This document shows, one piece after another, positions 1,102 to 21,718 of a stretch of 34,123 nt of DNA (its first letter is position 1; each line of letters begins with the position of its first letter). The DNA comes from a virus. Below the pieces are notes generated by a model, which was given only the letters and a program-made list of their open reading frames with translations, ran no database searches and was not told the origin of the DNA. The translations under genes were made by a program, and so were the position numbers. The stretch lies in the UHGV virus genome UHGV-1338014; one strand, written 5' to 3'.

Positions 1102-1323
1102 ATGCATATGAATAAAAGAACTAACAGCCAAGATTGGCACAGAGCTGACATCGTTGCAGCGCTACGAAAACGCAATATGTCACTAGCTGAATTGGGAAGA
1201 TCTAATCATCTTTCGTCTTCAACATTAAAAAATGCTTTGGATAAGAGATATCCGAAAGCGGAGAAAATCATTGCAGATGCACTGGGAATGACACCGCAAG
1301 ATATTTGGCCGTCTCGATACTAG
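1102..1323 (+). CDS. ner: Ner-like early transcriptional regulator (73 aa)
   Basis: Small ORF just upstream of the transposase gene; sequence [24 protein letters not shown]...IWPSRY fits the Ner/Nlp HTH family; AGGA-like RBS upstream. Confidence 0.85.
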
Positions 1324-1330
1324 GTGCGCT

Positions 1331-3319
1331 ATGAAAGAATGGTATACAGCAAAAGAGTTGCTCGGTTTGGCAGGTTTACCAAAGCAAGCCACTAACATTA
1401 CACGTAAGGCACAAAGAGAAGGCTGGGAGTTCAGGCAGGTTGCAGGAACTAAAGGTGTATCATTTGAATTCAATATCAAATCATTTCCTGTCACATTACG
1501 TGCTGAAATTCTGTTGCAACAAGGGAGAATTGAAACAAGCCAAGGGTATTTTGAAATCGCCCGCCCCACGCTGGAAGCCCACGATTATGATCGCGAGGCG
1601 CTGTGGAGCAAATGGGATAACGCCAGCGATTCCCAGCGCAGACTTGCTGAAAAATGGTTGCCTGCGGTTCAGGCTGCAGACGAAATGCTGAACCAGGGGA
1701 TTTCAACGAAAACGGCTTTTGCGACCGTTGCAGGGCATTACCAGGTCAGCGCATCCACTTTGCGGGACAAGTATTACCAGGTACAGAAGTTTGCGAAACC
1801 TGACTGGGCGGCTGCACTTGTTGATGGACGTGGAGCATCCCGTCGCAATGTTCACAAAAGTGAATTTGACGAGGATGCCTGGCAGTTTCTGATTGCAGAT
1901 TATCTGCGACCGGAAAAGCCCGCCTTCCGCAAATGTTATGAGCGTCTGGAACTGGCAGCCCGCGAGCATGGCTGGAGTATTCCCTCCCGTGCCACGGCCT
2001 TTCGCCGGATTCAGCAACTGGACGAGGCAATGGTTGTTGCCTGTCGTGAAGGTGAACATGCACTGATGCATCTGATACCAGCACAGCAGCGAACTGTGGA
2101 ACACCTGGACACCATGCAGTGGATCAACGGCGACGGTTATCTGCATAACGTCTTTGTACGCTGGTTTAACGGTGATGTGATCCGTCCAAAAACATGGTTC
2201 TGGCAGGATGTGAAAACCCGAAAAATTCTGGGCTGGCGCTGCGATGTGAGCGAGAACATTGATTCAATTCGCCTCTCGTTCATGGATGTTGTGACTCGCT
2301 ACGGTATCCCGGAGGATTTTCACATCACCATTGATAACACCCGTGGTGCTGCGAATAAATGGCTGACGGGAGGCGCGCCCAATCGCTACCGCTTTAAGGT
2401 AAAAGAGGACGATCCAAAAGGACTGTTTTTACTGATGGGTGCGAAAATGCACTGGACAAGCGTTGTTGCCGGTAAAGGCTGGGGCCAGGCAAAACCTGTT
2501 GAACGTGCTTTCGGTGTTGGTGGGCTTGAGGAATACGTTGATAAGCATCCGGCACTGGCTGGTGCATATACGGGGCCAAATCCGCAGGCAAAACCTGATA
2601 ACTATGGCGACCGCGCTGTTGATGCAGAGCTGTTTCTGAAAACCCTTGCCGAAGGTGTGGCGATGTTCAATGCCAGAACAGGCCGTGAAACAGAAATGTG
2701 CGGGGGCAAACTCTCGTTTGATGATGTTTTCGAGCGTGAATACGCCAGAACGATTGTGCGTAAGCCAACCGAAGAACAAAAACGGATGCTGTTACTGCCT
2801 GCCGAGGCGGTGAACGTTTCACGCAAAGGCGAGTTTACGCTTAAAGTTGGCGGCTCCCTTAAAGGCGCGAAAAACGTTTATTACAACATGGCGTTAATGA
2901 ATGCCAATGTGAAAAAAGTTGTGGTCAGGTTTGATCCACAGCAGTTACACAGCACGGTTTATTGTTACACCTTGGATGGTCGGTTTATATGTGAAGCGGA
3001 ATGTCTGGCACCTGTTGCATTTAATGATGCTGCGGCAGGCCGCGAATATCGCCGCCGCCAGAAACAACTGAAATCTGCAACTAAAGCAGCCATTAAGGCG
3101 CAGAAGCAAATGGACGCGCTGGAAGTTGCTGAACTGCTGCCGCAGATAGCCGAACCAGCAGCGCCAGAATCAAGGGTTGTTGGTATTTTCCGGCCTTCCG
3201 GTAACACGGTGCAGGTGAAATACCAGGAACCCGATGATGAATATGAAACTGATCGTGATGAATATCTGAATCATTCGCTGGATATTCTGGAACAGAACAG
3301 ACGTAAAAAAGCCATTTAA
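1331..3319 (+). CDS. A: DDE transposase MuA (662 aa)
   Basis: Size and position as Mu A; N-terminal winged-helix end-binding region, central DDE core region, C-terminal basic tail; translation closely resembles Mu A as I recall it. Confidence 0.95.
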
Positions 3320-3357
3320 TTAACGTTTAAACAAAATTTAATTACGAGGTTATTCAG

Positions 3358-4296
3358 ATGAATATTTCCGATATTCGCGCAGGACTGCGCACGCTTGTAG
3401 AAAGTGAAAAAGCGACTTATGCACAAATTGCACGCGAGTCTGGCGTGGCCGCAGGAACGTTAAGCGCATTCGTGAATAACAAGTACAACGGCGACAATGA
3501 ACGTGTTGCGCAGACGCTGGAACGCTGGCTGGAGAACTATCACCGTGCCGCAGAGCTGCCAGAACCACCACGTTTTGTGGAAACCAGAACAGCACGCCAA
3601 ATCTGGACGAGTATGCGTTTTGCCAGCCTGACTGAAAGTATTTCTGTTATCTGCGGTAATCCAGGTGTGGGAAAAACTGAAGCGGCCCGCGAATTTCGTC
3701 GCACCAATAACAATGTCTGGATGATCACCATTACCCCATCCTGTGCCAGTGTTCTGGAATGCCTGACTGAACTGGCTTATGAACTGGGAATGAATGACGC
3801 ACCACGCCGTAAGGGGCCACTCTCCCGCGCTTTGAGACGCCGTCTTGAAGGTACGCAGGGGCTGGTCATTATCGACGAAGCTGATCATCTTGGCGCTGAG
3901 GTTCTGGAAGAACTCCGCCTGTTACAGGAGTCCGCCCGTATTGGCCTTGTTCTGATGGGGAATCACCGCGTTTATTCAAACATGACCGGTGGTAACAGAA
4001 CGGTTGAATTTGCCCGACTGTTTTCCCGTATTGCCAAACGGACGGCAATCAATAAAACCAAAATTGATGATGTAAAGGCCATTGCGGATGCCTGGCAGAT
4101 TACCGGCGAAAATGAGCGGGAATTATTACAGCAGATTGCGCAAAAACCAGGTGCGCTTCGCATCCTGAACCACTCGCTGCGCCTTGCGTCCATGACCGCC
4201 CACGGCAAAGGTGAACGTGTTAATGAAGATTATCTGCGTCAGGCTTTCCGTGAATTAGACCTGGACGTTGATATTTCAACTCTGCTGCGCACGTAA
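3358..4296 (+). CDS. B: Transposition target-DNA activator MuB (AAA+ ATPase, 312 aa)
   Basis: Directly downstream of A; Walker A motif GNPGVGKT and Walker B-like VIIDEAD; length as Mu B. Confidence 0.93.
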
Positions 4297-4309
4297 GGAG
4301 AGCGAAATC

Positions 4310-4537
4310 ATGATGTCACGGAATATCAAAATGGCAACGGAAGTAAAGACCTGGTTACAGGAGCACGGCAGCCACGTCAACGAATCCTGGCTGGGCGTAG
4401 CCCGCCCGGTACTTGAAATCACGTGCCCACCACCGGAGCTGGTCAGAAACGCTGTCAGGATTATGGAGCATAAATCAGGGGTTGCCCGTTCCGTATGGAC
4501 GGCCCGCCTTAATGGTTGCCAGATTATCTGGCGTTAA
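4310..4537 (+). CDS. kil: Small early protein in the position of Mu kil (75 aa)
   Basis: First gene after B; the start at ATG 4310 is preceded by AGGAG, so the upstream extension in the ORF track is probably not translated. Assignment is by synteny only. Confidence 0.55.
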
Positions 4538-4569
4538 TAACGGCTTATTTATTTGTGAGGAATAACAAA

Positions 4570-4833
4570 ATGGCAAAAGTCATTATCGAAATCAAAAATG
4601 CGACATCTGAAGTTAAAGGGCAGCGTTTACGTACCAGTATTAACGTAGAACACAGTGCAGAGCTGGACGGCGATGAATGTACACTCGCTGGCATGGTAGC
4701 GTTACTGGTTCTGGAAAAAAGTCGGGATATTGTTTGCGAGTCAACCCATGAGGCCATTGAAATTCTGAAAAATGACGGCGTCATCACGGGTGGCAGTGTC
4801 ACAAAAACGACAGTTGAAGGAACACGTCACTGA
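4570..4833 (+). CDS. Hypothetical early protein (87 aa)
   Basis: ORF with GAGGA RBS 9 nt upstream of ATG 4570; semi-essential early region; function unknown. Confidence 0.55.
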   Translation: MAKVIIEIKNATSEVKGQRLRTSINVEHSAELDGDECTLAGMVALLVLEKSRDIVCESTHEAIEILKNDGVITGGSVTKTTVEGTRH

Positions 4834-4847
4834 AAGGAACGCTGACA

Positions 4848-5267
4848 ATGAACGCCAGAATCAGAAACGAAATCCAGGCATTAATTCGAATCAAAATGCG
4901 TAATAACAATGGCGGAGACTTACGCGAGTTTATTTGCGCGCGCGAAGTTGAGGGGTATGGCGAAAAGACTTACCTGATTGCATTTGACCATTACAGCATT
5001 TGTGCGCGTTATTGCGGAGAGGCGGTATTCCGCGCCATTACGTTTGGCAATGCTTTCAATGTGGATTTATGGGAATACGTCATGGACCGCGAATACATCA
5101 GCGCGTCAGACCCGGACGCACGGGAGCAGTGGCAGAACATCTGGCGCGATTACCGGCGAATGGCGAATGGCTGGACGCAGGGGACGTATTCTTCCCTTGC
5201 CCTGAAAGCGGTTCAGTTATCGCTGCGGCATATTCCGGCATCACTGCGCGCCCCCCTGTTGTACTGA
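4848..5267 (+). CDS. Hypothetical early protein (139 aa)
   Basis: ORF with AAGGA RBS; tightly packed in the early operon; no recognisable motif. Confidence 0.55.
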   Translation: MNARIRNEIQALIRIKMRNNNGGDLREFICAREVEGYGEKTYLIAFDHYSICARYCGEAVFRAITFGNAFNVDLWEYVMDREYISASDPDAREQWQNIWRDYRRMANGWTQGTYSSLALKAVQLSLRHIPASLRAPLLY

Positions 5268-5567
5268 GTGGTGACCGGAATGATGTGTAAGCGTAAACGC
5301 TGGTCACGCGAAGACCGGGAATTTATCGAAGCCAGTGTCGGGAAAATGACCGTCGAGGAAATGGCGAAAAAACTGAACGTTGCCACAACCGCTCTCCGGG
5401 CACATGCCAGAAGGTACGGAATATCGTTGTGTGTTTACCGAATCAGTGAGCACGACAAATATTTGTGTCGTGAACTTTATAAAGAAGGGCTGGCTATTCA
5501 TGTCATTGCCCAAAAGATGGAATTAAGCAATCGTGCTGTATCCAGTATTGTATACAGCGAATATTAA
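5268..5567 (+). CDS. Hypothetical small protein with helix-turn-helix-like segments (99 aa)
   Basis: ORF beginning at GTG 5268 (alternative ATG 5280); the segment MTVEEMAKKLNVATTALRAHARRYGIS looks like an HTH. Confidence 0.5.
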   Translation: MVTGMMCKRKRWSREDREFIEASVGKMTVEEMAKKLNVATTALRAHARRYGISLCVYRISEHDKYLCRELYKEGLAIHVIAQKMELSNRAVSSIVYSEY

Positions 5568-5587
5568 TTAACAGGAGCTTTATTTAT

Positions 5588-6112
5588 ATGGCTAAGTCAG
5601 CAAAACGAATCAGGAACGCCGCAGCGACTTATGTTCCGCAATCCCGAGATGCCGTGGTATGTGATATCCGCCGGATTGGTGACCTGCAACGCGAAGCAGC
5701 ACGACTTGAAACGGAAATGAATGACGCTATCGCCGAGATTACAGAAAAATACGCCTCACAGATTGCGCCACTTAAAACCAGTATTGAAACCCTTTCAAAA
5801 GGCATTCAGGGATGGTGTGAAGCGAACCGTGACGAACTGACGAACGGCGGCAAGGTGAAGACGGCAAACCTGGTAACCGGTGATGTGTCATGGCGTCAGC
5901 GCCCACCATCAGTAAGTATTCGCGGTGTGGATGCGGTAATGGAAACGCTGGAGCGTCTTGGCCTGCAACGTTTTATTCGCACGAAACAGGAAATCAACAA
6001 GGAAGCGATTTTACTGGAGCCGAAAGCGGTCGCAGGTGTTGCCGGAATTACAGTTAAATCGGGCATTGAAGATTTTTCTATTATTCCATTTGAACAGGAA
6101 GCCGGTATTTAA
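5588..6112 (+). CDS. gam: Gam host-nuclease inhibitor / DNA-end-binding protein (174 aa)
   Basis: Length and position as Mu Gam; translation resembles Mu Gam as I recall it (Ku-like end-binding protein). Confidence 0.85.
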   Translation: MAKSAKRIRNAAATYVPQSRDAVVCDIRRIGDLQREAARLETEMNDAIAEITEKYASQIAPLKTSIETLSKGIQGWCEANRDELTNGGKVKTANLVTGDVSWRQRPPSVSIRGVDAVMETLERLGLQRFIRTKQEINKEAILLEPKAVAGVAGITVKSGIEDFSIIPFEQEAGI

Positions 6113-6210
6113 TACCACCATTAATATTTAATTAATTCACACTCTTTTAATTATGGCGCGATGCGTCAGGGGATTGCTCGCGCCTGAATCTGATATCTGA
6201 GAAATAAAAA

Positions 6211-6741
6211 ATGATTGATGCAAAAATTCTGAACGGTGTCAGCACATTACTACGGGCTTACGGGCGTCTGACCTGTGGCGTTCTGGCTGAAAAAATGAAG
6301 ATGCCTCCCTCGTCAATGGTGTATTTCCTGCGTGATGCAGTTGATGCCGGAATGCTGACAGAATGCAACGGATTTTATGACGTTCCGCGCCCTCGTCCGA
6401 CGCCGCCAGTAAGACGAAACGCAACAACGGAACATCCCGATGTTGATGATGCTCGATGGTGCGCGTTCCGCCGCTCTTTGCCCTGGCTGGAAGGCAATGC
6501 TATTCCGGCACTGGCAAAAGAATTTGCGACAGGCGTACTGACCTGCGAGTCGGTTTACATCGTTGCAGAAGTGGGCGACGAGATGTGCAAACAGGGAATG
6601 CCCCGTTTTGTGATGGCGTATATCGATATCCGGCAGGGACGTTTTATTTGTGGCTCCAGTGGCAGGAATATCACCGACCACGTCCTGCGCTATCTCATTC
6701 TTGATTATTCACCGGCTCCGGTAGCGGTTGGCATCCAGTGA
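6211..6741 (+). CDS. Hypothetical protein with N-terminal winged-helix-like region and Pro-rich linker (176 aa)
   Basis: ORF with RBS; not recognisable as a canonical Mu early gene; function unknown. Confidence 0.5.
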   Translation: MIDAKILNGVSTLLRAYGRLTCGVLAEKMKMPPSSMVYFLRDAVDAGMLTECNGFYDVPRPRPTPPVRRNATTEHPDVDDARWCAFRRSLPWLEGNAIPALAKEFATGVLTCESVYIVAEVGDEMCKQGMPRFVMAYIDIRQGRFICGSSGRNITDHVLRYLILDYSPAPVAVGIQ

Positions 6742-6770
6742 AATCTTTTATTGCGAAGAGGTATTACGAA

Positions 6771-7160
6771 ATGAATAACGCAGAGAAAAATGAAATTCAA
6801 TCCACATCTGTCACTACCAGAAAACATCTTTATGATTTTTATGTCGCCTATAACCAGTGGTTAAAAAATGGTGCACCAGAAACAGAGGGGGAATTATTTG
6901 TCCGGTATTTTGGATTATGTAGCAATGCTTATAGTTATTTCGAATCCATCGGAGCATACGGCGAAGATGCAGCAGAACAATTGCGCACAGATTTTATCGC
7001 GAACGGACTGGATGAATTATTGCCTTTCAATGAGGACAGCGCGCACTACAAGGAAGAGTGCAGGTTTGAAAGGTGTCACCTGAATCTTGGTCGTGTGGCA
7101 TGGGTGGAAAAACACTGCATGAAGGAGATGGGGCAAAATGAGTCGCACATCCCTGATTAA
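6771..7160 (+). CDS. Hypothetical protein, AT-rich gene (129 aa from ATG 6771; frame open from GTG 6738)
   Basis: Visibly lower GC than neighbours; GAAGAGG RBS before ATG 6771; 3' end overlaps the gemA start. Confidence 0.5.
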   Translation: MNNAEKNEIQSTSVTTRKHLYDFYVAYNQWLKNGAPETEGELFVRYFGLCSNAYSYFESIGAYGEDAAEQLRTDFIANGLDELLPFNEDSAHYKEECRFERCHLNLGRVAWVEKHCMKEMGQNESHIPD

Positions 7161-7689
7161 ATTAATTCATGTCGCCCGGCGTGATCTACAACTCGACGAT
7201 GACACTTACCGCGCCTTTCTGGTGCAGTTCACGGGCAAAACCAGTTGCCGCGAGCTGACCGTCGCACAACTGGAACAGGTGCTCGATGCCATGAAAGAGC
7301 GCGGTTTTAAGAAGCAGAAAAAACATCCCCGCCGTCGCTTTAAGGGGCATGTCACACCGCGTGAGAAGATTTATAAAATCTGGCAGCAGATGTTTCAGGA
7401 TGGCTTTGTCGCTGATGGCAGTGATGCTGCGCTGGACAAATACGTTGCACGCCTGACGGCCAGACGTAATGGCGGTCAGGGTGTTTCCACGCTGGCCTGG
7501 TGTCACGGGGAATCGTTGCATGTTGTGCTCGAAACGCTCAAACAGTGGCATATGCGCTGCATCCGGGACGCCTTTGCCCGACATGGTGTGCCTTTACCTG
7601 TGAGCGAAACCGGGCGGGAGCTGCGCGGCTATGATGCACTGACCAGTGCGTATGCCCGCGCACGAAACAGCGGGAGAATTGCTGTATGA
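7138..7689 (+). CDS. gemA: GemA-like early protein (183 aa)
   Basis: Length matches Mu GemA and it sits immediately upstream of the Mor/C-family gene with start/stop overlap. Confidence 0.75.
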   Translation: MSRTSLIKLIHVARRDLQLDDDTYRAFLVQFTGKTSCRELTVAQLEQVLDAMKERGFKKQKKHPRRRFKGHVTPREKIYKIWQQMFQDGFVADGSDAALDKYVARLTARRNGGQGVSTLAWCHGESLHVVLETLKQWHMRCIRDAFARHGVPLPVSETGRELRGYDALTSAYARARNSGRIAV

Positions 7690-8096
7690 AACAGATGAAA
7701 GAGCAGGATTTATTCGAAGACTTCCGGGACGACAGTGTTCTGGAATATCTTCACGATTATCAGGAAAAATATGTTTACCCGGCGCTACTTTCAGAGCTGA
7801 ATGCTCTGCTGCGACAGGAACTGATAAGGCTTGGTGTTAACCCTGCCCACTCTCTTGAGCTGGTAGTGGCAATTTGCAATCATATCGGAGGGATTCAGGT
7901 ATATGTTCCGAAAGGGAAAATACTGGAAAATCTGATCAGAGACATGCGCATCTGGCGTGATTTTGATGGAAAAAACGTAGCAGAGTTGGTGCAGCGTTAC
8001 AAAGTGACCTACAAAACGGTATATCAGGCCATCAAAAGAATGCGAAGGCTGGAGCGTGGAAAATATCAAATGCAACTATTTAAGGATGAGCCATGA
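7686..8096 (+). CDS. mor: Mor/C-family transcriptional activator (136 aa)
   Basis: C-terminal region (HSLELVVAICNHIGGIQVYVPKG...NVAELVQRYKVTYKTVYQAIKRMRR) fits the Mor/C activator family; called mor rather than C because it directly follows gemA. Confidence 0.7.
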   Translation: MKQMKEQDLFEDFRDDSVLEYLHDYQEKYVYPALLSELNALLRQELIRLGVNPAHSLELVVAICNHIGGIQVYVPKGKILENLIRDMRIWRDFDGKNVAELVQRYKVTYKTVYQAIKRMRRLERGKYQMQLFKDEP

Positions 8097-8572
8097 AATA
8101 CTTTCCTCTTATGTTTTTACTGAGCGTATTTTGCGCTAATGCGGCAAAGCTGCCCTCTGAAGAGGTAATCAAAAAACGCCTGGCCGAAAAAGACCTCATT
8201 GCACTAAATAGCTGGAAGCCTCTTAAAGGGGGCGATTCAATTAAGAACGGTGGAACCGAAACTGCTCACAGCAAGTTTGGATTGTTTATGATTAATAATA
8301 AGGTCGTTAGTTCAACGACGACTGTAAAAGATTTTGATGATAATCCTGTAGGCGCTCTGCCCTCCTTTGCTGCATGTTCGCGGGTTGTTGAATCTGTAAT
8401 TGGTCAATTAACTGAAGAACAGCAGGAACGAGTTATTGACATGGTGGCTTCCGCAGCAAAAGTTAAAGGTTACGGACTAACGTATAAGATTCTGGGCTTT
8501 CACATTCAGACAAAGTTTCTCCCTATGGGGAAAAATATGATGATAGATTGCTCCATCAAAGGTGATGAGTAG
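8093..8572 (+). CDS. Secreted or periplasmic protein of unknown function (159 aa), AT-rich gene
   Basis: N-terminus MKYFPLMFLLSVFCANA|AK is a classical signal peptide (basic residue, hydrophobic core, A-x-A site); the ATG overlaps the stop of the upstream activator gene; followed by a strong intrinsic terminator. Confidence 0.6.
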   Translation: MKYFPLMFLLSVFCANAAKLPSEEVIKKRLAEKDLIALNSWKPLKGGDSIKNGGTETAHSKFGLFMINNKVVSSTTTVKDFDDNPVGALPSFAACSRVVESVIGQLTEEQQERVIDMVASAAKVKGYGLTYKILGFHIQTKFLPMGKNMMIDCSIKGDE

Positions 8573-8593
8573 TCATCTTTTTTAATTCAATGA

Positions 8594-8616
8594 AGCCGGT
8601 AAATCCGGCTTTTTTT
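8594..8616 (+). terminator. Rho-independent terminator (AGCCGG-TAAAT-CCGGCT plus T7)
   Basis: GC stem, 5-nt loop and a run of seven T directly after the stop of the 8093..8572 ORF; an identical copy lies at 16155..16177. Confidence 0.75.
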
Positions 8617-8671
8617 ATGCCTCCGGCACTATGAAGCAGACCACGTTTAAATCTGCTTCACAGGTGCTTTT

Positions 8672-9268
8672 ATGGAAAATCAAAAATTCTCCCCGGCCTT
8701 TGAACATGCGCTGAATTTTATTCAGCGTCCCGATATCGAAGGCGTCTATGTCAATGACCCCACTGACCGTGGCGGCGAAACCAAATACGGCATTTCTGAC
8801 CGCCGCGACGGTGTGATTGACGGCAAAACCGATGTCAGCGGCGACGGTAAACCGGATACCCGCATCAGGGATTTAACCCGCGAACAGGTCGCGCAGATTT
8901 ACTGGCGCGATTACTGGCTGCCTGCCGGATGTGATCAGTGGCCTGATGGCGTGGCGATCTTTGTGTTCGATGCAGCCGTTCAGCATGGCGTTAAAAAAGC
9001 TATCAGGATTTTGCAGGAAGCCGCTGATGTGGATGCTGACGGCATCATCGGCCCGCGTACCCGTAAGGCCGTGAGTCTGTCCACCCCGGACTGGTTGCTG
9101 GCCCGCTGCATTGTCCGTCGTTCCCGCTTTTATGCCGACATCATCAAGTCAAAACCCGCCCAGGGTAAATACCTGAACGGCTGGTTTAACCGCATGGAAA
9201 AGCTGACCGACGCCTGTCTGGAAATCATCGATACCCCTTTAGGCATCATGTCCGCCACGCGGGGGTGA
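8672..9268 (+). CDS. lys: Putative endolysin (GH108-like lysozyme domain plus peptidoglycan-binding domain, 198 aa)
   Basis: N-terminal DPTDRGGETKYGI and C-terminal DGIIGPRT motifs are typical of the GH108 / PG_binding_3 architecture; first gene after the terminator, in the Mu lys position. Confidence 0.7.
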   Translation: MENQKFSPAFEHALNFIQRPDIEGVYVNDPTDRGGETKYGISDRRDGVIDGKTDVSGDGKPDTRIRDLTREQVAQIYWRDYWLPAGCDQWPDGVAIFVFDAAVQHGVKKAIRILQEAADVDADGIIGPRTRKAVSLSTPDWLLARCIVRRSRFYADIIKSKPAQGKYLNGWFNRMEKLTDACLEIIDTPLGIMSATRG

Positions 9269-9269
9269 T

Positions 9270-9497
9270 ATGGGTAAAGGCTGGGATGCCTCGCTGAGAG
9301 CCGGGCGGCGTGACCGCCTGCGTCAGGAGGTTTTACATCGTATGGCCGGAGGTCCGCCGCCAGAGCCGGTGGACTATACCGGTCATGACGGTACACACGC
9401 CAGCTACTACATGCGTGGCTGGAACTCCGTGGATACACGGGACATTTTCTGGCAGTGCCAGAAGTACAAGGAAAAACTCAATGCACAGAATGAATAG
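9270..9497 (+). CDS. Hypothetical small protein (75 aa), lysis region
   Basis: ORF starting 1 nt after the lys stop; no transmembrane segment; function unknown. Confidence 0.4.
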   Translation: MGKGWDASLRAGRRDRLRQEVLHRMAGGPPPEPVDYTGHDGTHASYYMRGWNSVDTRDIFWQCQKYKEKLNAQNE

Positions 9498-9891
9498 TCT
9501 TTTTGTTCGCGTTATTTACTCCCGCTTTATGTTGTGCCAGTGGTCGTTTCTGGGACTGTCGGCAGTACTTTTTCTGGCAAGCTGTTTTGCCGGATGGCGG
9601 GCGTTTGCGGTCATGGTGCTGGCATACGGCGCGACACTCTGCCTGATTCACAGTTTCTCGCTGGGCAACGTACCTAATCGCCTGCAACCCAAAAGGCGTT
9701 TCCGGGCCGCCTCCCTTCGAATTGTCGGGTGGTCATGGGTGGTCTGGGCCGTTGGTCTTTTCATGCTGACATTCGGCCTTCTTTATCTGAAGGAGCCTTA
9801 TCAGCTGGCGTTCTGGCTGGGCGGTATCTTTTGCGCGGCACTTTATAAACATCAGCGCAGTTTTCATAAGGGGGATTCATGGATCCGTTAA
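9481..9891 (+). CDS. Putative multi-pass membrane protein (holin-like candidate, 136 aa)
   Basis: Internal ATG 9481 with AAGGA RBS; about four hydrophobic helices (FLGLSAVLFLASCFAGW, AVMVLAYGATLCLIHSF, GWSWVVWAVGLFMLTFGLL, LAFWLGGIFCAALY). The upstream part of the 9310 ORF looks untranslated. Confidence 0.5.
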   Translation: MHRMNSLFVRVIYSRFMLCQWSFLGLSAVLFLASCFAGWRAFAVMVLAYGATLCLIHSFSLGNVPNRLQPKRRFRAASLRIVGWSWVVWAVGLFMLTFGLLYLKEPYQLAFWLGGIFCAALYKHQRSFHKGDSWIR

Positions 9892-10487
9892 CCCTTTCAG
9901 GCATCGCCTCTGTTCTGCTGAAAGCCGGGCCGGGGCTGATTCGTTCCGTCGGGCGCTGGTTTGGTGGTAGCACATCTGCCGCCGCTGACTCGGTGGCCGG
10001 TATGGTGGAAAGCGTCCGGGAAAGCCTGCCGGTTACCGAACAGCAACGCATTCTGGAACAACAACTGACGGCGTTGTCACCGGAGCAACTGATGCAACTG
10101 GAAACGCTGAAAGTCCAGTTACAACAGCTTGAGGTGGAACGGCAGAAGCTGGTGCTGGCTGACGAGCAGGCCGCGCATCACGAACAGCAGGAAACCATCC
10201 GCAATGGTGACAACGCTGCGGACAGCTATGTGCGCCAGACGCGCCCGCTGCTGGCCCGTCTTTCCTGTTACAGCAGTCTGACCTATGTGCTGTTGCTCTC
10301 CTGTGGCCAGATTGCCGGAGCCATTGCCGGTGCCAGAGGTATCACACTGCATATGCCGTCACCGGACTGGGATATCACGCTGATGTTGCTTACCCCGGCG
10401 CTGGGCTATCTCGGAGTAAGAACCATGGACGGCTTTGCCCGGTACAGCAAATCGAGCCGTCACAAAATCTCTGCGGGGCCGAAATGA
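9879..10487 (+). CDS. Hypothetical protein with coiled-coil middle region and C-terminal hydrophobic segments (202 aa)
   Basis: ORF overlapping neighbours in the lysis/early-late region; possibly lysis-associated. Confidence 0.5.
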   Translation: MDPLTLSGIASVLLKAGPGLIRSVGRWFGGSTSAAADSVAGMVESVRESLPVTEQQRILEQQLTALSPEQLMQLETLKVQLQQLEVERQKLVLADEQAAHHEQQETIRNGDNAADSYVRQTRPLLARLSCYSSLTYVLLLSCGQIAGAIAGARGITLHMPSPDWDITLMLLTPALGYLGVRTMDGFARYSKSSRHKISAGPK

Positions 10488-10711
10488 CCGACGAAATCGA
10501 CCGCATCAGTGAAGTGGTTATGAACGAACGTCAGAGCGTCGTTAACGCCTGGCAGACGCGGACAAAAGAAGCGCCCCATAGTCGGGGCTGCTGCAATGAC
10601 TGTGGGAACGTTATTCCGGCACAACGCCTTGCGGCGCTGCCGGATGTGGTGACCTGTATTGACTGTCAGCATATTCGGGAACGCAGGAGGAAAACGTGTC
10701 CTGGGAAATGA
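10484..10711 (+). CDS. TraR/DksA-family C4 zinc-finger protein (75 aa)
   Basis: CNDCGNVIPAQR...CIDCQ four-cysteine motif characteristic of phage TraR/DksA-like proteins. Confidence 0.7.
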   Translation: MTDEIDRISEVVMNERQSVVNAWQTRTKEAPHSRGCCNDCGNVIPAQRLAALPDVVTCIDCQHIRERRRKTCPGK

Positions 10712-11001
10712 TCAGAGCCAACTGGCCCATTCTGTGGGCATTGCTGATGACAGGAATAAACCTGCTTCAGTTGATACTGGCGAAAACCTACGTCAAACGT
10801 GAAGAGTTTGATTCACTCCGTTCCCGCGTGTCGGTGATGGAAAGCCAGGTACACCATTTACCTGACCGTGATGAGTTCCACCGCCTGCAACTGGATATCA
10901 GCAATCTGCGGGGAGAAATCAAAGAACTGGGGCCATCCATCCGCCAGGTATCCCGCATCAGCGATTTGTTATTAGAGAACGAGTTAAAGGAAAAAAATTA
11001 A
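10696..11001 (+). CDS. Membrane-anchored coiled-coil protein (101 aa)
   Basis: N-terminal hydrophobic helix (WPILWALLMTGINLLQLIL) followed by a predicted coiled coil; function unknown (could be a spanin-like or assembly protein). Confidence 0.5.
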   Translation: MSWEMIRANWPILWALLMTGINLLQLILAKTYVKREEFDSLRSRVSVMESQVHHLPDRDEFHRLQLDISNLRGEIKELGPSIRQVSRISDLLLENELKEKN

Positions 11002-11294
11002 TGGCGATGAAAGAGATCCTCACTGAAGACCGTCGTCTGGTGTTACTGCGTTCCCTGCTGGACTGTGGCGACAGCGCGAATGAATCCGTGTTGCAGACCT
11101 GCCTTCAGGCTTACGGTCATAAGGTATCCCGTGATGTGGTGCGCACTCAGCTTGCATGGCTTCGCGAGCAGGGGCTGGTTCGTCTGTCTGATGTGGGCGG
11201 CTGTTACGTGGCTGAAATCACCGGCAGCGGCGAGGATGTGGCAAACGGCCTGTCCAGCGTTCCGGGCGTTAAAAAACCCCGTGCGAGGGACTGA
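11001..11294 (+). CDS. Hypothetical protein, possible winged-helix fold (97 aa)
   Basis: ORF with start overlapping the upstream stop; function unknown. Confidence 0.5.
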   Translation: MAMKEILTEDRRLVLLRSLLDCGDSANESVLQTCLQAYGHKVSRDVVRTQLAWLREQGLVRLSDVGGCYVAEITGSGEDVANGLSSVPGVKKPRARD

Positions 11295-11296
11295 GC

Positions 11297-11584
11297 ATGG
11301 CCCGAAAACTGAAGCCGTTAAGTCGCGGAGAACGGGCCGTCGTGCGGCAACTGGCGTACTGCCTTGTGCTGGCAGATATTGAGCAAAACGCCATTGTCCG
11401 TGCATACGAAAAACAGACAGGAAAGCCCTGGAACCCGGATGCACCGGATACCCCCATGAAACGCGCCCTGCGATCATCACCGGCATGTGCGCGGCTGTGG
11501 AAGCTGTTAAGTAAGGATATTCAGTCCGTTCGTGAAGAAATATACGCCGGTCTGAAAACGCAGAGGTCTGAAGATGGAAAATGA
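11297..11584 (+). CDS. Hypothetical protein (95 aa)
   Basis: ORF immediately upstream of the small terminase gene. Confidence 0.5.
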   Translation: MARKLKPLSRGERAVVRQLAYCLVLADIEQNAIVRAYEKQTGKPWNPDAPDTPMKRALRSSPACARLWKLLSKDIQSVREEIYAGLKTQRSEDGK

Positions 11585-12155
11585 ACAACGCCCCACCCGT
11601 GGCCGTCTTTCCAAAGTGGATTTACTCCCGGACAGCATCCGGGAGCAGTTACATCAGATGCTGCGGGAAAAGCGGCACACGCAGGAAGAAATCCGCGAAG
11701 CCATCAACACCCTGATTGACGAACACAACCTGCCGGAAGAGATGCAGTTAAGCCGGACGGGCTTAAACCGCTATGCCAGCCGTATGGAAAAAGTCGGGGC
11801 CAAAATCCGCGCCTCCCGCGAGATGGCCGAGGTCTGGGCGGCAAAGCTGGGTTCCGCGCCGACGTCAGACGTCGGCAAGCTGCTGATGGAGTTTGTAAAA
11901 ACGCTGGCCTTTGAAACGTCCATGTCGATGGCAGAAGACGACAAGCCCGTTGCACCGAAGGCGCTGGGCCAACTGGCGCTGGTTGCCCAGCGTCTGGAAG
12001 CAGCCGCCATGACCAGCCATAAACGCGAGAAAGCGATCCGCGATGCGTTTGCGCAGGAGATGGCAGAAAAAACCGAAGAGCTGGTCAGAACGGGCGGTCT
12101 GTCAGGCGGTGCGGCTGACACCATCAAACGGGACATTCTGGGGATTAGCGCATGA
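11574..12155 (+). CDS. Terminase small subunit, Mu gp27-like (193 aa)
   Basis: Position immediately upstream of large terminase with overlap; size and charged helical composition typical of Mu-like small terminase. Confidence 0.7.
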   Translation: MENEQRPTRGRLSKVDLLPDSIREQLHQMLREKRHTQEEIREAINTLIDEHNLPEEMQLSRTGLNRYASRMEKVGAKIRASREMAEVWAAKLGSAPTSDVGKLLMEFVKTLAFETSMSMAEDDKPVAPKALGQLALVAQRLEAAAMTSHKREKAIRDAFAQEMAEKTEELVRTGGLSGGAADTIKRDILGISA

Positions 12156-13687
12156 CACAGATGAACACGTTCAGTGAATCCGATGTTCTGCTGCCGTATC
12201 AGAAACGCTGGGTTGCGGATGATTCAAAACTGAAAATCGCCGAGAAATCCCGCCGTACCGGTTTAACCTGGGCAGAAGCGGCAGATGCGGCACTGACCGC
12301 ATCACTGAAGAAGGAAAACGGCGGGAGCGATCACTTTTATATCGGTTCGAATAAGGAGATGGCCCGCGAATTTATCGACGCCGTGGCAATGTGGGCGAAA
12401 GCGTTTAATGCGGCAGCAGAAGAAATCCGCGAGGAAGTGATCACCGACGAAGACAAGGACATTCTGACGTTCGTCGTGTACTTCGCCAGCGGATTTAAGG
12501 TCAAGGCGCTGTCCAGTAATCCGGGCAACATTCGCGGGATGCAGGGGAATGTCACCATCGACGAGGCGGCGTTTCATGAACAACTGGATGAGGTACTCAA
12601 GGCGGTCACACCACTGACCACGTGGGGCGGTAAGGTTCGCCTTATCTCTACCCATGACGGCGTGGACAACCCGTTTAACCAGCTGATTCAGGAAAGCCGC
12701 GCAGGCAAAAAAGATTACCGTATTCACACCATCACGCTGGATGATGCCTGCAATGACGGGCTGTACCGGCGTATCTGTCAGGTGCGCGGCATGGTGTGGT
12801 CACCGGAGGCCGAGGCGGAATGGAAAGAAGGTCTGCTGAGAAATACCGCCACCCGCGAAGACGCCCTGGAGGAATACTACTGCGTCCCGAAAAACGGCGG
12901 CGGCACGTATATCCCTCGCTCACTGCGTGAACGTGCGGCCCGTGGCACCGGGAAAGTGTTGCGCTTTACCGGCACACCGGAATTTAACGCACTGACAGAA
13001 AGCCAGCGCCGGGCAGAAATCCGGGAATGGCTGGAGACGGTGGTGCGCCCCGAGCTGGAAAAACTCCCGAAGAACCTGCGCCACTGTCTGGGGGAAGACT
13101 TTGCGCGTTCGGGTGACCTGACCGTACTGGCCCCTGTGACGGTGAACGATGACACCACCCGCGAGGTGCCGTTCCTGGTTGAGCTTGGCAATGTGCCGTT
13201 TAAACAGCAGGAGCAGGTGCTGTTCTGGCTTTGCGATCGTCTGCCCCGTCGTGACGGTATCAAAATGGATGCACGGGGGAATGGTCAGTATCTGGCAGAA
13301 CAGGCGGCGGAGCGGTACGGCGATGAGGTGGAACAGGTGATGCTGTCCGTGGCGTTCTACCGCGAAAACATGCCCCGTTTCCGTGCAGCGTTTGAAGATG
13401 ATGAGCTGATCCTTCCGAAGCATGAAGACGTGATCAATGACCTCGGGGCCATTCAGTTACTGCGTGGTGTTCCCGGCATTGACGATGCCCGTACTAAAGG
13501 TAGCGATGGCCGCAAGCGTCACGGCGATGCCGCTGTGGCCATTTTCCTGGGCTTCCTTGCCAGCAAGGATGACTGCCACCGTTACGAGCTGCACCGCCTG
13601 AACCGCCCGGCGAAACCGGAAGAAGGCAACACGCGCCGCCAGATGAAACTGACACGCGGCCTGAAAAATGAGGGAGGTTTACTGTGA
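12152..13687 (+). CDS. Terminase large subunit, Mu gp28-like (511 aa)
   Basis: Size and position; N-terminal ATPase region and C-terminal nuclease-like region with acidic residues (GEDFARSGDLTVL). Confidence 0.85.
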   Translation: MTQMNTFSESDVLLPYQKRWVADDSKLKIAEKSRRTGLTWAEAADAALTASLKKENGGSDHFYIGSNKEMAREFIDAVAMWAKAFNAAAEEIREEVITDEDKDILTFVVYFASGFKVKALSSNPGNIRGMQGNVTIDEAAFHEQLDEVLKAVTPLTTWGGKVRLISTHDGVDNPFNQLIQESRAGKKDYRIHTITLDDACNDGLYRRICQVRGMVWSPEAEAEWKEGLLRNTATREDALEEYYCVPKNGGGTYIPRSLRERAARGTGKVLRFTGTPEFNALTESQRRAEIREWLETVVRPELEKLPKNLRHCLGEDFARSGDLTVLAPVTVNDDTTREVPFLVELGNVPFKQQEQVLFWLCDRLPRRDGIKMDARGNGQYLAEQAAERYGDEVEQVMLSVAFYRENMPRFRAAFEDDELILPKHEDVINDLGAIQLLRGVPGIDDARTKGSDGRKRHGDAAVAIFLGFLASKDDCHRYELHRLNRPAKPEEGNTRRQMKLTRGLKNEGGLL

Positions 13688-15255
13688 ACCTGAAACAACT
13701 GGCCGGAGCCGTTCGCCGTCTGCTGAACCCGGCAACCGGTGAGGAAGATACGCTGAAAAAAGAGAGGCTCGATGAAGTACAGGCCCGTCCGCGTCAGGCA
13801 GGTGTGCGCTCGGCCTCGCCGGGCATCAGTATCGCTTCCGGGCTGAATCCCGGCAGGCTGGCAGGTATTCTGCGCAATGCTGCCGACGGTATCACACGTG
13901 ATTTTTTTATCCTTGCCGAAGAGATGGAAGAACGCGATTTGCATTACGCTTCGGTGTTGCGCACCCGCAAGCTGACGGTAGCCGGTATCGAACCGGTGGT
14001 GGTTGCCGCCAGTGATGACGATGCCGACGTGCAGCTGGCGGACGCCATCCGGGCGCTGATGGACGCTCCGCAAATTCCCGAACTGTTGTTTGATTTGCTC
14101 GACGGGCTGGGAAAAGGTGTGGCGGTCTGTGAAATTCTCTGGAACACCCGCAACAACCACTGGGTGCCCCGTGATTATGAGTGGGTTGATCCCCGTTTTC
14201 TGAAAGCCGAAAAGCCCACGCTGCGCCAGTTCCGCCTGCTGACTGACGATGAGCCGGTGGATGGCGTACCGCTGACACCGGGAAAATTCATTGTTCACCA
14301 GCCGCGTCTGAAATCCGGTCTGCCGCTGCGTAACGGTCTGGCCCGTCTGGTGGCGGTAATGTACATGCTGAAATCCTTTACCGTACGTGACTGGTGGGCA
14401 TTTGCGGAAAAATTCGGCATTCCGGTCACGGTGGGGAAATACGGCCCCAACGCCACGGAGGAGCAAATCCGCGTGCTGATTGACGCGATTGCCTCCATTG
14501 CCTCGGATGCCGGGTGTGCCATTCCGCAGTCCATGCAACTGGAGATGCAGGAAACCGCCAGCCGGAATAACGGCGGTGCACTGTTCCGTGAAATGGCGGA
14601 ATGGTGTGATGCGCAAATCAGTAAGGCTGTGCTGGGGCAGACCATGACCACGGATAACGGCAGTTCGCGTTCACAGGCGGACGTGCACAATCAGGTGCGC
14701 ATGGACATTGTGCGCTGGGATGCGCGGCAGCTGGCTAACACGCTGAACGAATATCTGGTACGTCCCTACATCGAGGCCAACTACGGGCCACAGGCGCACT
14801 ACCCCCGTGTTGTTCTGCGTATCAGTGAAGCAGAAGATCTGAAGGCGCTGACAGACGCCGTCGTGCCGCTGATTGACCGGGGGCTGCGGGTTCAGGAATC
14901 GGAGCTGCGGGACCGGTTCGGTTTTGCTGAACCGGATGAAGGGGCGGAAGTTCTGCATCCTGTGTCTGCCGGGGTGCCAGGTGATATGGCGATGAACCGT
15001 GAGCGCGTCGCCCTGAACCGGGAACACCCCGACGAACTGGCACAGATGGTGGATGATGCCCTGCGTGACTGGCAGAAAACCGGCGAGGCGTTCACGAACC
15101 CGGTGCTGACACTGGCGCAGGAATGCGACAGTTTTGATGACTTTCTGAAACGCCTGCCTGAGCTTCAGGAAACGCTGAACGCGGACGACTTTGCCCTGCA
15201 ACTGGCAGAGGTGTGCTTTAAGGCGCGAGCACTGGGAGACACTGCTCATGCGTGA
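13684..15255 (+). CDS. Portal protein, Mu gp29-like (523 aa)
   Basis: Size and position directly after large terminase with overlap. Confidence 0.85.
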   Translation: MNLKQLAGAVRRLLNPATGEEDTLKKERLDEVQARPRQAGVRSASPGISIASGLNPGRLAGILRNAADGITRDFFILAEEMEERDLHYASVLRTRKLTVAGIEPVVVAASDDDADVQLADAIRALMDAPQIPELLFDLLDGLGKGVAVCEILWNTRNNHWVPRDYEWVDPRFLKAEKPTLRQFRLLTDDEPVDGVPLTPGKFIVHQPRLKSGLPLRNGLARLVAVMYMLKSFTVRDWWAFAEKFGIPVTVGKYGPNATEEQIRVLIDAIASIASDAGCAIPQSMQLEMQETASRNNGGALFREMAEWCDAQISKAVLGQTMTTDNGSSRSQADVHNQVRMDIVRWDARQLANTLNEYLVRPYIEANYGPQAHYPRVVLRISEAEDLKALTDAVVPLIDRGLRVQESELRDRFGFAEPDEGAEVLHPVSAGVPGDMAMNRERVALNREHPDELAQMVDDALRDWQKTGEAFTNPVLTLAQECDSFDDFLKRLPELQETLNADDFALQLAEVCFKARALGDTAHA

Positions 15256-18091: not shown

Positions 18092-18117
18092 CCCGTCATC
18101 CGTAATCTGTAACCCGC

Positions 18118-18149: not shown

Positions 18150-18169
18150 GCCTTTTAAAAGGCAGAGTC

Positions 18170-21709: not shown

Positions 21710-21718
21710 GGGGGCCGC

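What the first reader, a model, noticed from the sequence alone, without database searches (positions are those of the whole stretch)
7686..8096. Only one Mor/C-family activator is recognisable
Mu uses two paralogous activators in a cascade: Mor for the middle promoter and C for the late promoters. In this window I find a single Mor/C-type protein, following gemA. The slot between it and lys, where I would expect the second activator by position, holds an unrelated secreted-protein gene. Either late activation is done by one protein, or the second activator has diverged beyond recognition.
Basis: inference. Interest (0 to 1): 0.5.

Follow-up and report, generated by a model that had tools for sequence, protein, structure and literature searches.

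The report
Single Mor activator, two Pm-type late promoters
This complete Mu-like E. coli prophage really has only one Mor/C-type activator, and copies of the DNA site that Mor uses in phage Mu sit directly in front of its lysis and head operons, so it most likely runs a two-step cascade that is common among Mu relatives rather than Mu's three-step one.

Summary
ORF 7686..8096 is a Mor-family protein (Pfam PF08765, E 6.7e-30; 59% identical to Mu Mor, about 31% to Mu C). No other stretch of the window matches a Mor/C profile, in any of the six frames. The window contains the whole prophage (53..34052, 5-bp target duplication), so no C gene lies just outside it.

The likely reason is a shorter cascade. 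A 43-nt element occurs twice, at 8586-8628 before lys and at 16147-16189 before I. It matches Mu's middle promoter Pm: the mapped 16-bp Mor site (13/16 and 14/16 identical), the T-tract, and a -10 hexamer at the same 23-nt spacing. The lys operon also carries a homologue of Mu gp18, the first gene of Mu's middle operon. No C-type boxes (TTAT-N5-6-ATAA) lie at late promoters.

The layout is widespread. All 12 other loci of this GH108-endolysin type that span the region (seven genera) have one Mor/C gene and the element after it. Mu, the E. coli W prophage and Yersinia phage vB_YpM_5 have Mor plus C.

So this is an ordinary two-tier variant, not a hidden activator. Expression of the tail genes and com/mom, which have no Mor box, remains unresolved.

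The parts
7138..7689 (+). gemA homologue, the gene before the activator in the early operon
   Evidence: Pfam GemA PF06252, E 1.6e-34. 81% identical to Mu gp16.
7686..8096 (+). The only Mor/C-family activator gene, a Mor orthologue of 136 aa
   Evidence: PF08765, E 6.7e-30. 59% identical to Mu Mor and about 31% to Mu C. Family-invariant G68 G69 Y73 P75 G77 are present. N-terminal half acidic (pI 4.8), C-terminal half basic (pI 10.1). It is the sole hit of the Mor/C HMM in six frames.
8093..8572 (+). Last gene of the early transcript: 159-aa protein with a signal-peptide-like N-terminus. It is overlapped with the mor stop codon (ATGA) and occupies the slot where Mu has Pm, gp18-20 and C.
   Evidence: Sequence. 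phrog_38744, unknown function. No Mor/C similarity. In related loci this slot is variable: either a 160-171-aa signal-peptide protein or a ~110-aa membrane protein.
8586..8634 (+). Pm-type promoter and terminator element 1 (predicted lys promoter). Mor box 8589-8604 AATGAAGCCGGTAAAT; hairpin plus T7 at 8592-8616; -10 CACTAT at 8627-8632; predicted start near 8640.
   Evidence: Exact 25-nt repeat, 0 expected by chance. 43-nt repeat at 91% identity. 13/16 identical to the Mu Pm Mor site and 32/45 over box to -10. Pm numbering taken from the primer table of PMC4390567. nhmmer E 2.6e-19 with a model built without the window's own copies. Hairpin -12.6 kcal/mol, z -4.3.
8672..9268 (+). Endolysin (GH108 plus peptidoglycan-binding domain), first gene after element 1
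   Evidence: PF05838, E 1.8e-23, and PF09374, E 2.8e-17.
9270..9497 (+). Homologue of Mu gp18, the first gene of Mu's middle operon
   Evidence: 70% identity over 69 aa to Mu gp18, E 1e-35. This ties the operon to Mu's Pm operon.
10484..10711 (+). TraR/DksA-type zinc-finger gene in the lys operon, a candidate accessory regulator. This role is not shown.
   Evidence: PF01258, E 1.9e-10. phrog_54. Present in 12 of 12 single-Mor loci that span the slot and absent from the three Mor+C genomes examined.
16147..16195 (+). Pm-type promoter and terminator element 2 (predicted I promoter). Mor box 16150-16165 AGTGAAGCCGGTAAAT; hairpin plus T7 at 16153-16177; -10 CATACT at 16188-16193; predicted start near 16201.
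   Evidence: (E 4.7e-19). 14/16 identical to the Mu Pm Mor site. The core from -10 to +1 aligns with Mu's PI, while Mu has a C box where this element has a Mor box.
16227..17189 (+). Head protease/scaffold gene (I), first gene after element 2. It begins a nearly gapless 16.7-kb run of head and tail genes ending at 32963.
   Evidence: ORF map. PGAP calls the 99%-identical gene in strain TD225-C4 a 'phage protease'. No consensus sigma-70 promoter or strong + strand terminator lies in 17900..33936.
32964..33104 (+). com/mom upstream region. It is homologous to Mu's Pmom Dam/OxyR segment, but Mu's C box is replaced and there is no Mor box. How it is regulated is unresolved.
   Evidence: Alignments. 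PWM and nhmmer scans negative. No TTAT-N5-6-ATAA here.
33105..33936 (+). com (33105..33290) and mom (33211..33936)
   Evidence: phrog_13819, E 4e-43, and phrog_1384, E 3e-83. Mom is 97% and Com 73% identical to Mu's.

Best explanation
The prophage runs a two-tier lytic cascade. The early transcript (ner, A, B ... gemA, mor, 8093..8572) makes a single Mor-type activator and then stops at a hairpin plus T-tract at 8592-8616. The left arm and loop of that hairpin form a 16-bp Mor box. Together with a -10 hexamer 23 nt downstream and no -35 element, it makes up an activator-dependent sigma-70 promoter of the same design as Mu's Pm. The element occurs twice: before the lysis/packaging/head-assembly operon (lys to F, predicted start near 8640) and before the head/tail operon (I onwards, predicted start near 16201). 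Mor therefore switches on late genes directly, with no C tier. Each element probably also terminates the transcript arriving from upstream, so that downstream expression depends on Mor.

Shown here: there is one Mor/C gene, there are two Pm-type elements, and both the elements and the single-activator layout are conserved in relatives. Inferred: that Mor binds and activates at these sites, the start sites, that termination occurs, and that the I transcript reads through to the tail genes and perhaps com/mom.
For: Single activator. The prophage is complete within the window.

The Mor site in Mu Pm is experimentally defined as a 16-bp dyad at -51..-36 (PMC4287176, PMC4390567). The primer table in PMC4390567 fixes it as AGTAAAGCCGGTTAAT (sequence). 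The window carries AATGAAGCCGGTAAAT at 8589-8604 and AGTGAAGCCGGTAAAT at 16150-16165. Both are followed by CCGGC-T7 and then by CACTAT or CATACT exactly where Pm has TATCCT.

A profile built from relatives, without the window's own copies, finds exactly these two sites (E about 1e-19) and nothing else.

Among the 15 distinct promoter copies, taken from Mu and 11 related prophage loci, the box, the T-tract and the A and T of the -10 hexamer are invariant, while the neighbouring positions vary. In all five phage sequences where both copies are seen, the two copies share the same right half-site variant, TAAAT or TTAAT.

The first element always lies after mor plus one variable small gene and before a GH108 endolysin. 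Where the fetched flank reaches that far and a copy was found, the second lies before I.

The operon after element 1 contains a gp18 homologue (70% identity), as Mu's Pm operon does. Element 2 shares its -10/+1 core with Mu PI but carries a Mor box where Mu has a C box.

No C-type boxes lie at late promoters. Published work reports that Mor does not activate C promoters and C does not activate Pm (PMC4287176). A Mor-type protein paired with Mor-type boxes is therefore the coherent combination.
Against: There is no experimental evidence for this phage: no mapped transcription start and no binding data.

The element is also a good intrinsic terminator (-12.6 kcal/mol), so part of its conservation could reflect termination alone.

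No Mor box was found for the tail genes or com/mom, and Mu uses separate promoters for both. One activator with two promoters may therefore not be the whole late programme.

The -10 hexamers are weak: CACTAT matches the consensus at 3 of 6 positions.

A lineage-specific TraR/DksA-like gene co-occurs perfectly with the single-Mor layout and could be a further regulator.
Confidence: 0.78

Rival explanations
1. A second-tier regulator exists but is not a Mor/C homologue. The TraR/DksA-type zinc-finger protein (10484..10711), made from the Mor-dependent lys operon, would act on RNA polymerase to turn on the late units that lack a Mor box (tail genes, com/mom). It would thereby fill the role of C.
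For: PF01258, E 1.9e-10, and phrog_54. It is present in 12 of 12 single-Mor loci that span the slot and absent from Mu, the E. coli W prophage and Yersinia vB_YpM_5, all of which have C. No Mor box lies upstream of P or com. Mu's C box at Pmom is replaced by a different conserved block.
Against: From my own knowledge, TraR/DksA proteins bind the RNA polymerase secondary channel and are not known to select specific promoters. The co-distribution may simply reflect shared ancestry of the lysis module, because the GH108 lys, DUF2730 and 11297 ORFs co-vary in the same way. The 16.7-kb I-to-tail run has no gaps, no consensus promoters and no strong + strand terminators, so read-through is sufficient to explain its expression.
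Confidence: 0.12
2. A second Mor/C paralogue is present but has diverged beyond recognition by sequence.
For: None found. Several small ORFs of unknown function exist (4268, 4516, 4848, 6738, 11297).
Against: The Mor+C HMM finds nothing else in six frames. Pfam at E<=1 finds nothing. hhalign probabilities are about 1% or less for six candidates. The HTH-bearing ORFs 5268 and 11001 have Mu homologues, gp9 at 89% and gp26 at 61%, so they are not replacements for C. There are no C-type DNA boxes. Both recognisable late promoters carry the Mor-type box.
Confidence: 0.03
3. The two repeats are only intrinsic terminators or insulators, and late genes are expressed by some other route such as read-through, antitermination or unrecognised promoters. 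Alternatively, the prophage is a defective remnant that lost C.
For: The hairpin plus T7 is a textbook terminator. The Klebsiella Kp4866-3 copy before I keeps a hairpin despite sequence changes.
Against: Positions irrelevant to a terminator are conserved: the loop T(A/T)AAT, the bases 5' of the stem, and a -10-like hexamer with invariant A and T at a fixed 23-nt distance. The element matches Mu's experimentally mapped Mor site base for base. The prophage has intact ends, a target duplication and uninterrupted ORFs. The same layout recurs in seven genera and in a record deposited as a complete Klebsiella phage genome, flagged UNVERIFIED.
Confidence: 0.05

Closest known systems
Bacteriophage Mu Mor protein and its middle promoter Pm
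   Same: The protein is 59% identical and sits in the same position after gemA. It has the same acidic-N/basic-C layout and the family-invariant GG..Y.P.G linker. The DNA box is 13-14 of 16 identical to the mapped Mor site. The T-tract and the -10 spacing are the same, and the box overlaps a terminator hairpin as it does at Pm. A gp18 homologue lies downstream, as in Mu's middle operon.
   Different: In Mu there is one Pm, and it drives a short middle operon (gp18, gp19, gp20, C). Here the element occurs twice and drives the lysis/head and head/tail operons directly. Left half-site position 4 is G here and A in Mu, and the recognition helix reads TYKTVY here and TFNTVY in Mu. The C-terminus ends QMQLF, resembling the QPDLF clamp-binding motif reported for MuC (PMC12867686), rather than Mu Mor's QPSLL.
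[quoted passage not shown]
   Same: It has the same functional role, switching on lysis and morphogenesis genes. It belongs to the same protein family. The activator site lies at the same position (-51..-36) relative to a -10 hexamer with no -35. The core of PI is homologous between Mu and this phage.
   Different: The protein is only about 31% identical to C. There are no TTAT-N5-6-ATAA boxes at late promoters. Two promoters are recognisable, not four. The C box at com/mom is replaced by unrelated sequence.
Single-Mor Mu-like prophages of Enterobacterales with a GH108 endolysin (E. coli TD225-C4 prophage in rlmB; loci in Raoultella, Pluralibacter, Serratia, Klebsiella, Kluyvera and Brenneria; Klebsiella phage Kp4866-3)
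   Same: They share the layout gemA, mor, one variable small gene, Pm-type element, GH108 lys, gp18-like gene, and so on through a TraR-like gene to I, with one Mor/C gene. A second Pm-type copy before I was found in 6 of the 12, including one weak (Kp4866-3) and one variant (L005) copy. The late region of TD225-C4 is 99% identical to the window.
   Different: The window combines this late region with an early region that is Mu/D108-like (84-87% nucleotide identity across 4.5-7.6 kb of the window). TD225-C4 has a different transposase and repressor.
Yersinia phage vB_YpM_5 (MT374853)
   Same: It has the same gemA, mor and Pm, followed by a GH108 homologue (74%) and a gp18 homologue.
   Different: It then carries C and a Mu-type lysozyme, so it has two Mor/C genes and one Pm. 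It is a mosaic between the two architectures.

Membership tests
[quoted passage not shown] | Sequence match to the family profile above the curated threshold | tested here: met
   103.7 bits against a cut-off of 24.9, E 6.7e-30, covering 105 of 107 profile positions.
[quoted passage not shown] | Small protein (about 100-150 aa) with an acidic N-terminal half, a basic C-terminal half and an HTH near the C-terminus (PMC2582627) | tested here: met
   136 aa. Residues 1-68 have pI 4.8 and residues 69-136 pI 10.1. Weak HTH_28 and HTH_23 hits fall at residues 94-121.
[quoted passage not shown] | Invariant beta-strand linker residues (C: G70 G71 Y75 P77 G79; PMC2582627) | tested here: met
   G68, G69, Y73, P75 and G77 are invariant in alignment A1, which includes Mu Mor and Mu C.
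[quoted passage not shown] | Binds a 16-bp dyad centred at -43.5 and activates sigma-70 RNA polymerase | not testable with these tools
   Only cognate-looking sites were found. Binding and activation need experiments.
Orthologue of Mu Mor rather than Mu C | Closer in sequence to Mor than to C, and encoded immediately after gemA in the early operon | tested here: met
   phmmer 9e-49 against Mor and 2e-14 against C. 59% versus about 31% identity. The gemA stop overlaps the mor start.
Orthologue of Mu Mor rather than Mu C | Its target promoter drives a middle operon that encodes C | tested here: not met
   There is no C gene anywhere in the complete prophage. The Pm-type promoters precede lys and I.
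Pm-type (Mor-dependent) promoter | Mor dyad at -51..-36, no -35 hexamer, T-tract, and a -10 hexamer at -13..-8 | tested here: met
   13/16 and 14/16 identity to the Mu box, identical CCGGC-T7, and CACTAT or CATACT at the Pm -10 position. The architecture is conserved in the 15 distinct promoter copies from Mu and 11 related loci.
Pm-type (Mor-dependent) promoter | Transcription depends absolutely on Mor | not testable with these tools
   Needs reporter fusions or transcription-start mapping.
Mu-type three-tier cascade (early, then Mor/middle, then C/late) | Two Mor/C paralogues in one genome | tested here: not met
   One hit only. The positive controls Mu, E. coli W prophage and vB_YpM_5 each give two annotated or detected copies.
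Mu-type three-tier cascade (early, then Mor/middle, then C/late) | C boxes (TTAT-N5-6-ATAA; PMC12867686) at four late promoters: lys, I, P and mom | tested here: not met
   There are only two matches in the window, both inside early-operon coding sequence (4461 and 8286) and at about the chance level. The Pmom C box is replaced.

The most novel reading that the evidence does not exclude
In this lineage the C tier was not simply lost. It was replaced by a non-homologous regulator, the TraR/DksA-type zinc-finger protein (10484..10711). This protein is made from the Mor-dependent lys operon and co-occurs with the single-Mor layout in 12 of 12 loci, against 0 of 3 Mor+C phages. Acting through the RNA polymerase secondary channel, it would control the late units that have no Mor box. 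These are the tail genes and the com/mom module, whose Mu C box has been replaced by a different conserved block.
Probability: 0.1. Interest if true: 0.6.

Novelty: new variant of a known kind. Interest (0 to 1): 0.35.

Why it matters
Mu's early, middle and late cascade is a textbook example, and Mor and C are under active structural and mechanistic study (cryo-EM complexes; dependence on the sliding clamp).

This prophage and its many relatives show a simpler wiring that appears more common among the relatives sampled here. One Mor-type protein is paired with two combined terminator/promoter elements. The lys promoter matches Mu's Pm, and the I promoter corresponds to Mu's PI with a Mor box where Mu has a C box.

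Mu's middle tier may therefore be an addition made by inserting C and swapping activator boxes at existing promoters. The direction of that change is inferred, not shown.

The system also offers natural material for asking what determines Mor versus C specificity, and for asking why Mu needs an extra delay step. For genome annotation, the practical message is that a missing C gene in a Mu-like prophage is normal and is not a sign of decay.

Tried and rejected
1. Single-sequence phmmer searches with Mu Mor, Mu C and the window protein against six-frame fragments found no second hit.
2. Two Mor/C HMMs (53 sequences, and Mor+C+window only) found no second hit.
3. Pfam at E<=1 on 20 ORFs gave no second hit. 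hhalign of the family alignment against ORFs 4848, 5268, 6738, 10484, 11001 and 11297 gave probabilities of about 1% or less.
4. I looked for a third and fourth Pm-type site upstream of P and com. I used nhmmer, a full 49-column PWM and a reduced PWM (box plus -10 only). Nothing rose above the shuffle maxima. The three 3-mismatch matches to the 16-mer (5230-, 11308+, 29515-) lie inside genes and lack the T-tract and -10, so I treat them as chance.
5. A search for C-type boxes TTAT-N5-6-ATAA gave only two matches, inside early-operon coding sequence and at about the chance level.
6. I tried to read the conserved block upstream of com as a Mor box. Only a TAAAT lies 23 nt before T(A/G)TC(T/C)(G/T), with no left half-site and no convincing -10. 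I rejected it as unproven.
7. I first thought the Kp4866-3 copy before I had lost its hairpin, which would have separated promoter from terminator function. Folding showed that a hairpin is retained, so I dropped that argument.
8. Mu gp24 occupies the same slot as the TraR-like gene but is not DksA-like.
9. PMC145667 (Artsimovitch and Howe 1996) is not held in the library. I recovered the Pm numbering from the primer table of PMC4390567 instead.
10. A consensus sigma-70 promoter and terminator scan of 17900-34123 found fewer promoter-like sites than in shuffled sequence and about as many terminator-like sites, so it did not help.
Full report
**What the window is.** The window holds a complete Mu-type transposable prophage. 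The Mu left end (TGTATTGATTCAC...) starts at 53 and the right end (...GCCGCTTCA) finishes at 34052. A 5-bp direct repeat, GCCGC, flanks it. The early region is close to Mu, SfMu and D108, with 84-87% nucleotide identity across 4.5-7.6 kb of the window. The late region is of another type and is 99% identical to a prophage inserted in rlmB of E. coli TD225-C4. About 93 of 5,426 complete E. coli genomes match the 7000-10700 segment, 38 of them over at least 80% of its length.

**Checking the observation.**
- ORF 7686..8096 (136 aa) matches Pfam Mor, PF08765, at E 6.7e-30.
- It is 59% identical to Mu Mor and about 31% to Mu C.
- It has the family's invariant GG..Y.P.G linker and the acidic-N/basic-C charge pattern.
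- It follows gemA with overlapping stop and start codons.
A Mor+C HMM against all 784 six-frame stop-to-stop fragments of at least 25 aa returns this ORF at 1e-69 and nothing else below E = 1.
- Pfam at E<=1 on 20 early and lysis ORFs gives no second candidate. Profile-profile comparison with six small ORFs gives probabilities of about 1% or less.
- PGAP also annotates a single Mor-family protein in the near-identical late region of TD225-C4.
- The ORF between mor and lys (8093..8572) begins with a signal-peptide-like segment and belongs to a PHROG of unknown function.

Because the prophage ends lie inside the window, the missing C gene is not a window-edge artefact.

**What explains it.** The longest meaningful repeat in the window is a 43-nt element present twice on the + strand. 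One copy is at 8586-8628, just before lys, and the other at 16147-16189, just before I. The copies are 91% identical with an exact 25-nt core, where chance predicts none.

The element is essentially Mu's middle promoter Pm:

| Promoter | Sequence from the Mor box to the -10 hexamer |
|---|---|
| Mu Pm | AGTAAAGCCGGTTAAT CCGGC TTTTTTT ACGTCCTCAA TATCCT |
| window, before lys | AATGAAGCCGGTAAAT CCGGC TTTTTTT ATGCCTCCGG CACTAT |
| window, before I | AGTGAAGCCGGTAAAT CCGGC TTTTTTT CTGCCTTCCG CATACT |

(Sequences.)

Published work defines the Mor site as a 16-bp dyad at -51..-36, made of 5-bp inverted repeats around a G/C-rich hexamer. Pm has a -10 hexamer and no -35 (PMC4390567, PMC4287176). The primer table in PMC4390567 places -51 at the A of AGTAAAGCC. 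That makes AGTAAAGCCGGTTAAT the Mor site and TATCCT the -10 at -13..-8.

By the same numbering, the window's boxes are 8589-8604 and 16150-16165. The -10 hexamers are 8627-8632 and 16188-16193, and the predicted starts fall near 8640 and 16201. The starts are inferred.

The box overlaps a stable hairpin followed by seven T residues (-12.6 kcal/mol, z about -4). The same is true at Mu Pm, where the GenBank record annotates a predicted terminator. The element should therefore both stop incoming transcription and start Mor-dependent transcription. That dual role is inferred.

**Comparative support.**
- A scan of species-representative genomes with the Mor alignment returned 14 loci. Ten of these carry close relatives of the window's Mor with long flanks, from Raoultella, Pluralibacter, Serratia, Klebsiella, Kluyvera and Brenneria. 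An eleventh long-flank locus, L017, is a distant relative (40% identity) from a metagenome-assembled genome.
- Each of the 11 has exactly one Mor/C hit within the fetched flanks. The same is true of the complete Klebsiella phage Kp4866-3 record, which is flagged UNVERIFIED.
- In the ten close loci, TD225-C4, a short Trabulsiella contig and Kp4866-3, the same element sits 330-560 bp downstream of mor. It follows one variable small gene and precedes a GH108 endolysin. No element was found in L017.
- A second copy before I, some 7.6-8.7 kb further on, was found in 6 of the 12 other loci of this type. These include a weak Kp4866-3 match (E 0.012) and a variant box in L005. Some flanks stop short of I.
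- Across the 15 distinct promoter copies from Mu and 11 related loci, the box, the T-tract and the A and T of the -10 hexamer are invariant, while the neighbouring positions vary. A terminator alone would not need the loop sequence or a downstream hexamer at a fixed 23-nt distance.
- A profile built without the window's own copies finds just these two sites in the window (E about 1e-19). A reduced model (box plus -10 only) finds nothing else above shuffle level.
- Genomes with both Mor and C have only one Pm-type element, directly after mor. These are Mu, the E. coli W prophage and Yersinia phage vB_YpM_5.

**Orthology of the promoters.** The gene after lys (9270..9497) is 70% identical to Mu gp18, the first gene of Mu's middle operon. 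The window's lys promoter is therefore the positional and sequence counterpart of Pm, and the operon it drives runs straight on into lysis, packaging and head genes.

The I promoter aligns with Mu's PI across the -10/+1 core (CGCA[A/T]ACTGAC). Where Mu has its C box, the window has a Mor box at the same distance.

Yersinia phage vB_YpM_5 is a mosaic of the two layouts: Pm, a GH108 homologue, gp18, C, then a Mu-type lysozyme.

No C-type boxes (TTAT-N5-6-ATAA; PMC12867686) occur at late promoters in the window. Published work shows that Mor does not activate C promoters and C does not activate Pm (PMC4287176). A Mor-type protein with Mor-type boxes is thus the consistent pairing.

**Most likely mechanism.** The cascade has two tiers.
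1. The early transcript makes Mor and ends at element 1.
2. Mor then recruits sigma-70 RNA polymerase at element 1 (lys through F) and at element 2 (I onwards).
3. From I to 32963 the genes are nearly gapless, with no consensus promoter or strong + strand terminator. One long transcript could therefore serve the head and tail genes. This step is inferred.

I put about 0.78 on direct Mor activation of the two operons. I am less sure that this is the entire late programme.

**What remains open.** Mu has separate C-dependent promoters for P and mom, and I find no counterpart here.

The com upstream region (32964-33104) is homologous to Mu's Pmom Dam/OxyR segment. It has two GATC sites and a leftward promoter-like site reminiscent of momP2. 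Mu's C box, however, is replaced by another block, TGTG(G/A)TTAAATA(T/C)CCCCAGCCCTCCGGG. That block is conserved in five E. coli prophages and is not a Mor box. Mom itself is 97% identical to Mu's, and Com 73%.

A TraR/DksA-type zinc-finger gene (10484..10711) lies in the lys operon of all 12 single-Mor loci that span that slot. It is absent from the three Mor+C genomes examined. It may be a further regulator, or it may simply travel with that lysis module.

[quoted passage not shown] It fails only one Mor criterion: its promoter does not drive a C gene. The circuit is not Mu's three-tier cascade, since two defining features were tested and not met.

A single Mor gene next to structural genes is also how other transposable phages are annotated. 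KS10 has gp27 Mor directly before the protease gene (PMC2628397). In the Pseudomonas D3112-like phages, GemA and Mor are core ORFs (PMC4378225). The lack of C is therefore not surprising to a specialist.

A side note: the protein's C-terminus ends QMQLF. This resembles the QPDLF clamp-binding motif shown to be needed for MuC function. Mu Mor ends QPSLL (PMC12867686; alignments). The resemblance is from sequence only.

**Verdict.** What is new is modest:
- the two explicit Pm-type terminator/promoter elements;
- their conservation across genera;
- the correspondence to Mu's Pm and PI, which suggests that Mu's middle tier is an insertion into a simpler ancestral circuit.

I rate this a new variant of a known kind, with interest about 0.35.

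Noticed in passing
window 48-57 and 34048-34057: The prophage is complete within the window. The Mu-type left end is at 53 and the right end at 34052, flanked by a 5-bp direct repeat GCCGC (48-52 and 34053-34057). This is the target-site duplication expected from Mu-type transposition.
   Followed up: partly
window 16013-16149: The gap between F and I contains three copies of GTTTT(T)GAAGG (at 16089, 16109 and 16121), just upstream of promoter element 2. Mu has its strong gyrase site at the same place in the genome, annotated at AF083977 17879. Whether this is the equivalent site was not tested.
   Followed up: no
window 32964-33104: The com upstream region is homologous to Mu's Pmom Dam/OxyR segment. 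It has GATC sites at 33007 and 33025 and a leftward promoter-like site at 33026..32999 resembling Mu momP2. Mu's C-binding box is replaced by a different block that is conserved in five E. coli prophages. The activator of this promoter, if there is one, is unknown.
   Followed up: partly
window 33105-33936: Mom is 97% identical to Mu Mom at the protein level, but Com is only 73% identical and the promoter differs. This suggests a recombination junction inside the com/mom module.
   Followed up: no
window 10484-10711: A TraR/DksA-type zinc-finger gene occupies the slot where Mu has gp24, which is not DksA-like. It is present in all 12 single-Mor loci that span the slot and absent from the three Mor+C genomes examined.
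   Followed up: partly
L018 (Yersinia phage vB_YpM_5, MT374853) 9940-11950: This phage has a mosaic arrangement: Pm, a GH108 endolysin homologue (74% identical to the window's lys), a gp18 homologue, C, and then a Mu-type lysozyme. It therefore carries two different endolysin-type genes and links the two regulatory architectures.
   Followed up: partly
window 8093-8572 and the equivalent slot in L004-L014: The gene between mor and the Pm-type element is a variable cargo slot. It holds either a 160-171-aa protein with a signal-peptide-like start or a ~110-aa multi-pass membrane protein. It is co-transcribed with the early genes, and its function is unknown.
   Followed up: partly
window 30888-32963: There is no gin invertase or invertible G segment. 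The ORF at 32493-32963 corresponds to what PGAP calls a truncated tail-fibre N-terminal domain pseudogene in the TD225-C4 prophage.
   Followed up: no
window 5268-5567: This 99-aa early protein has two HTH-like segments (phrog_323, 'D5-like transcriptional regulator') and is 89% identical to Mu gp9. Because Mu has it too, it is not a substitute for C.
   Followed up: partly
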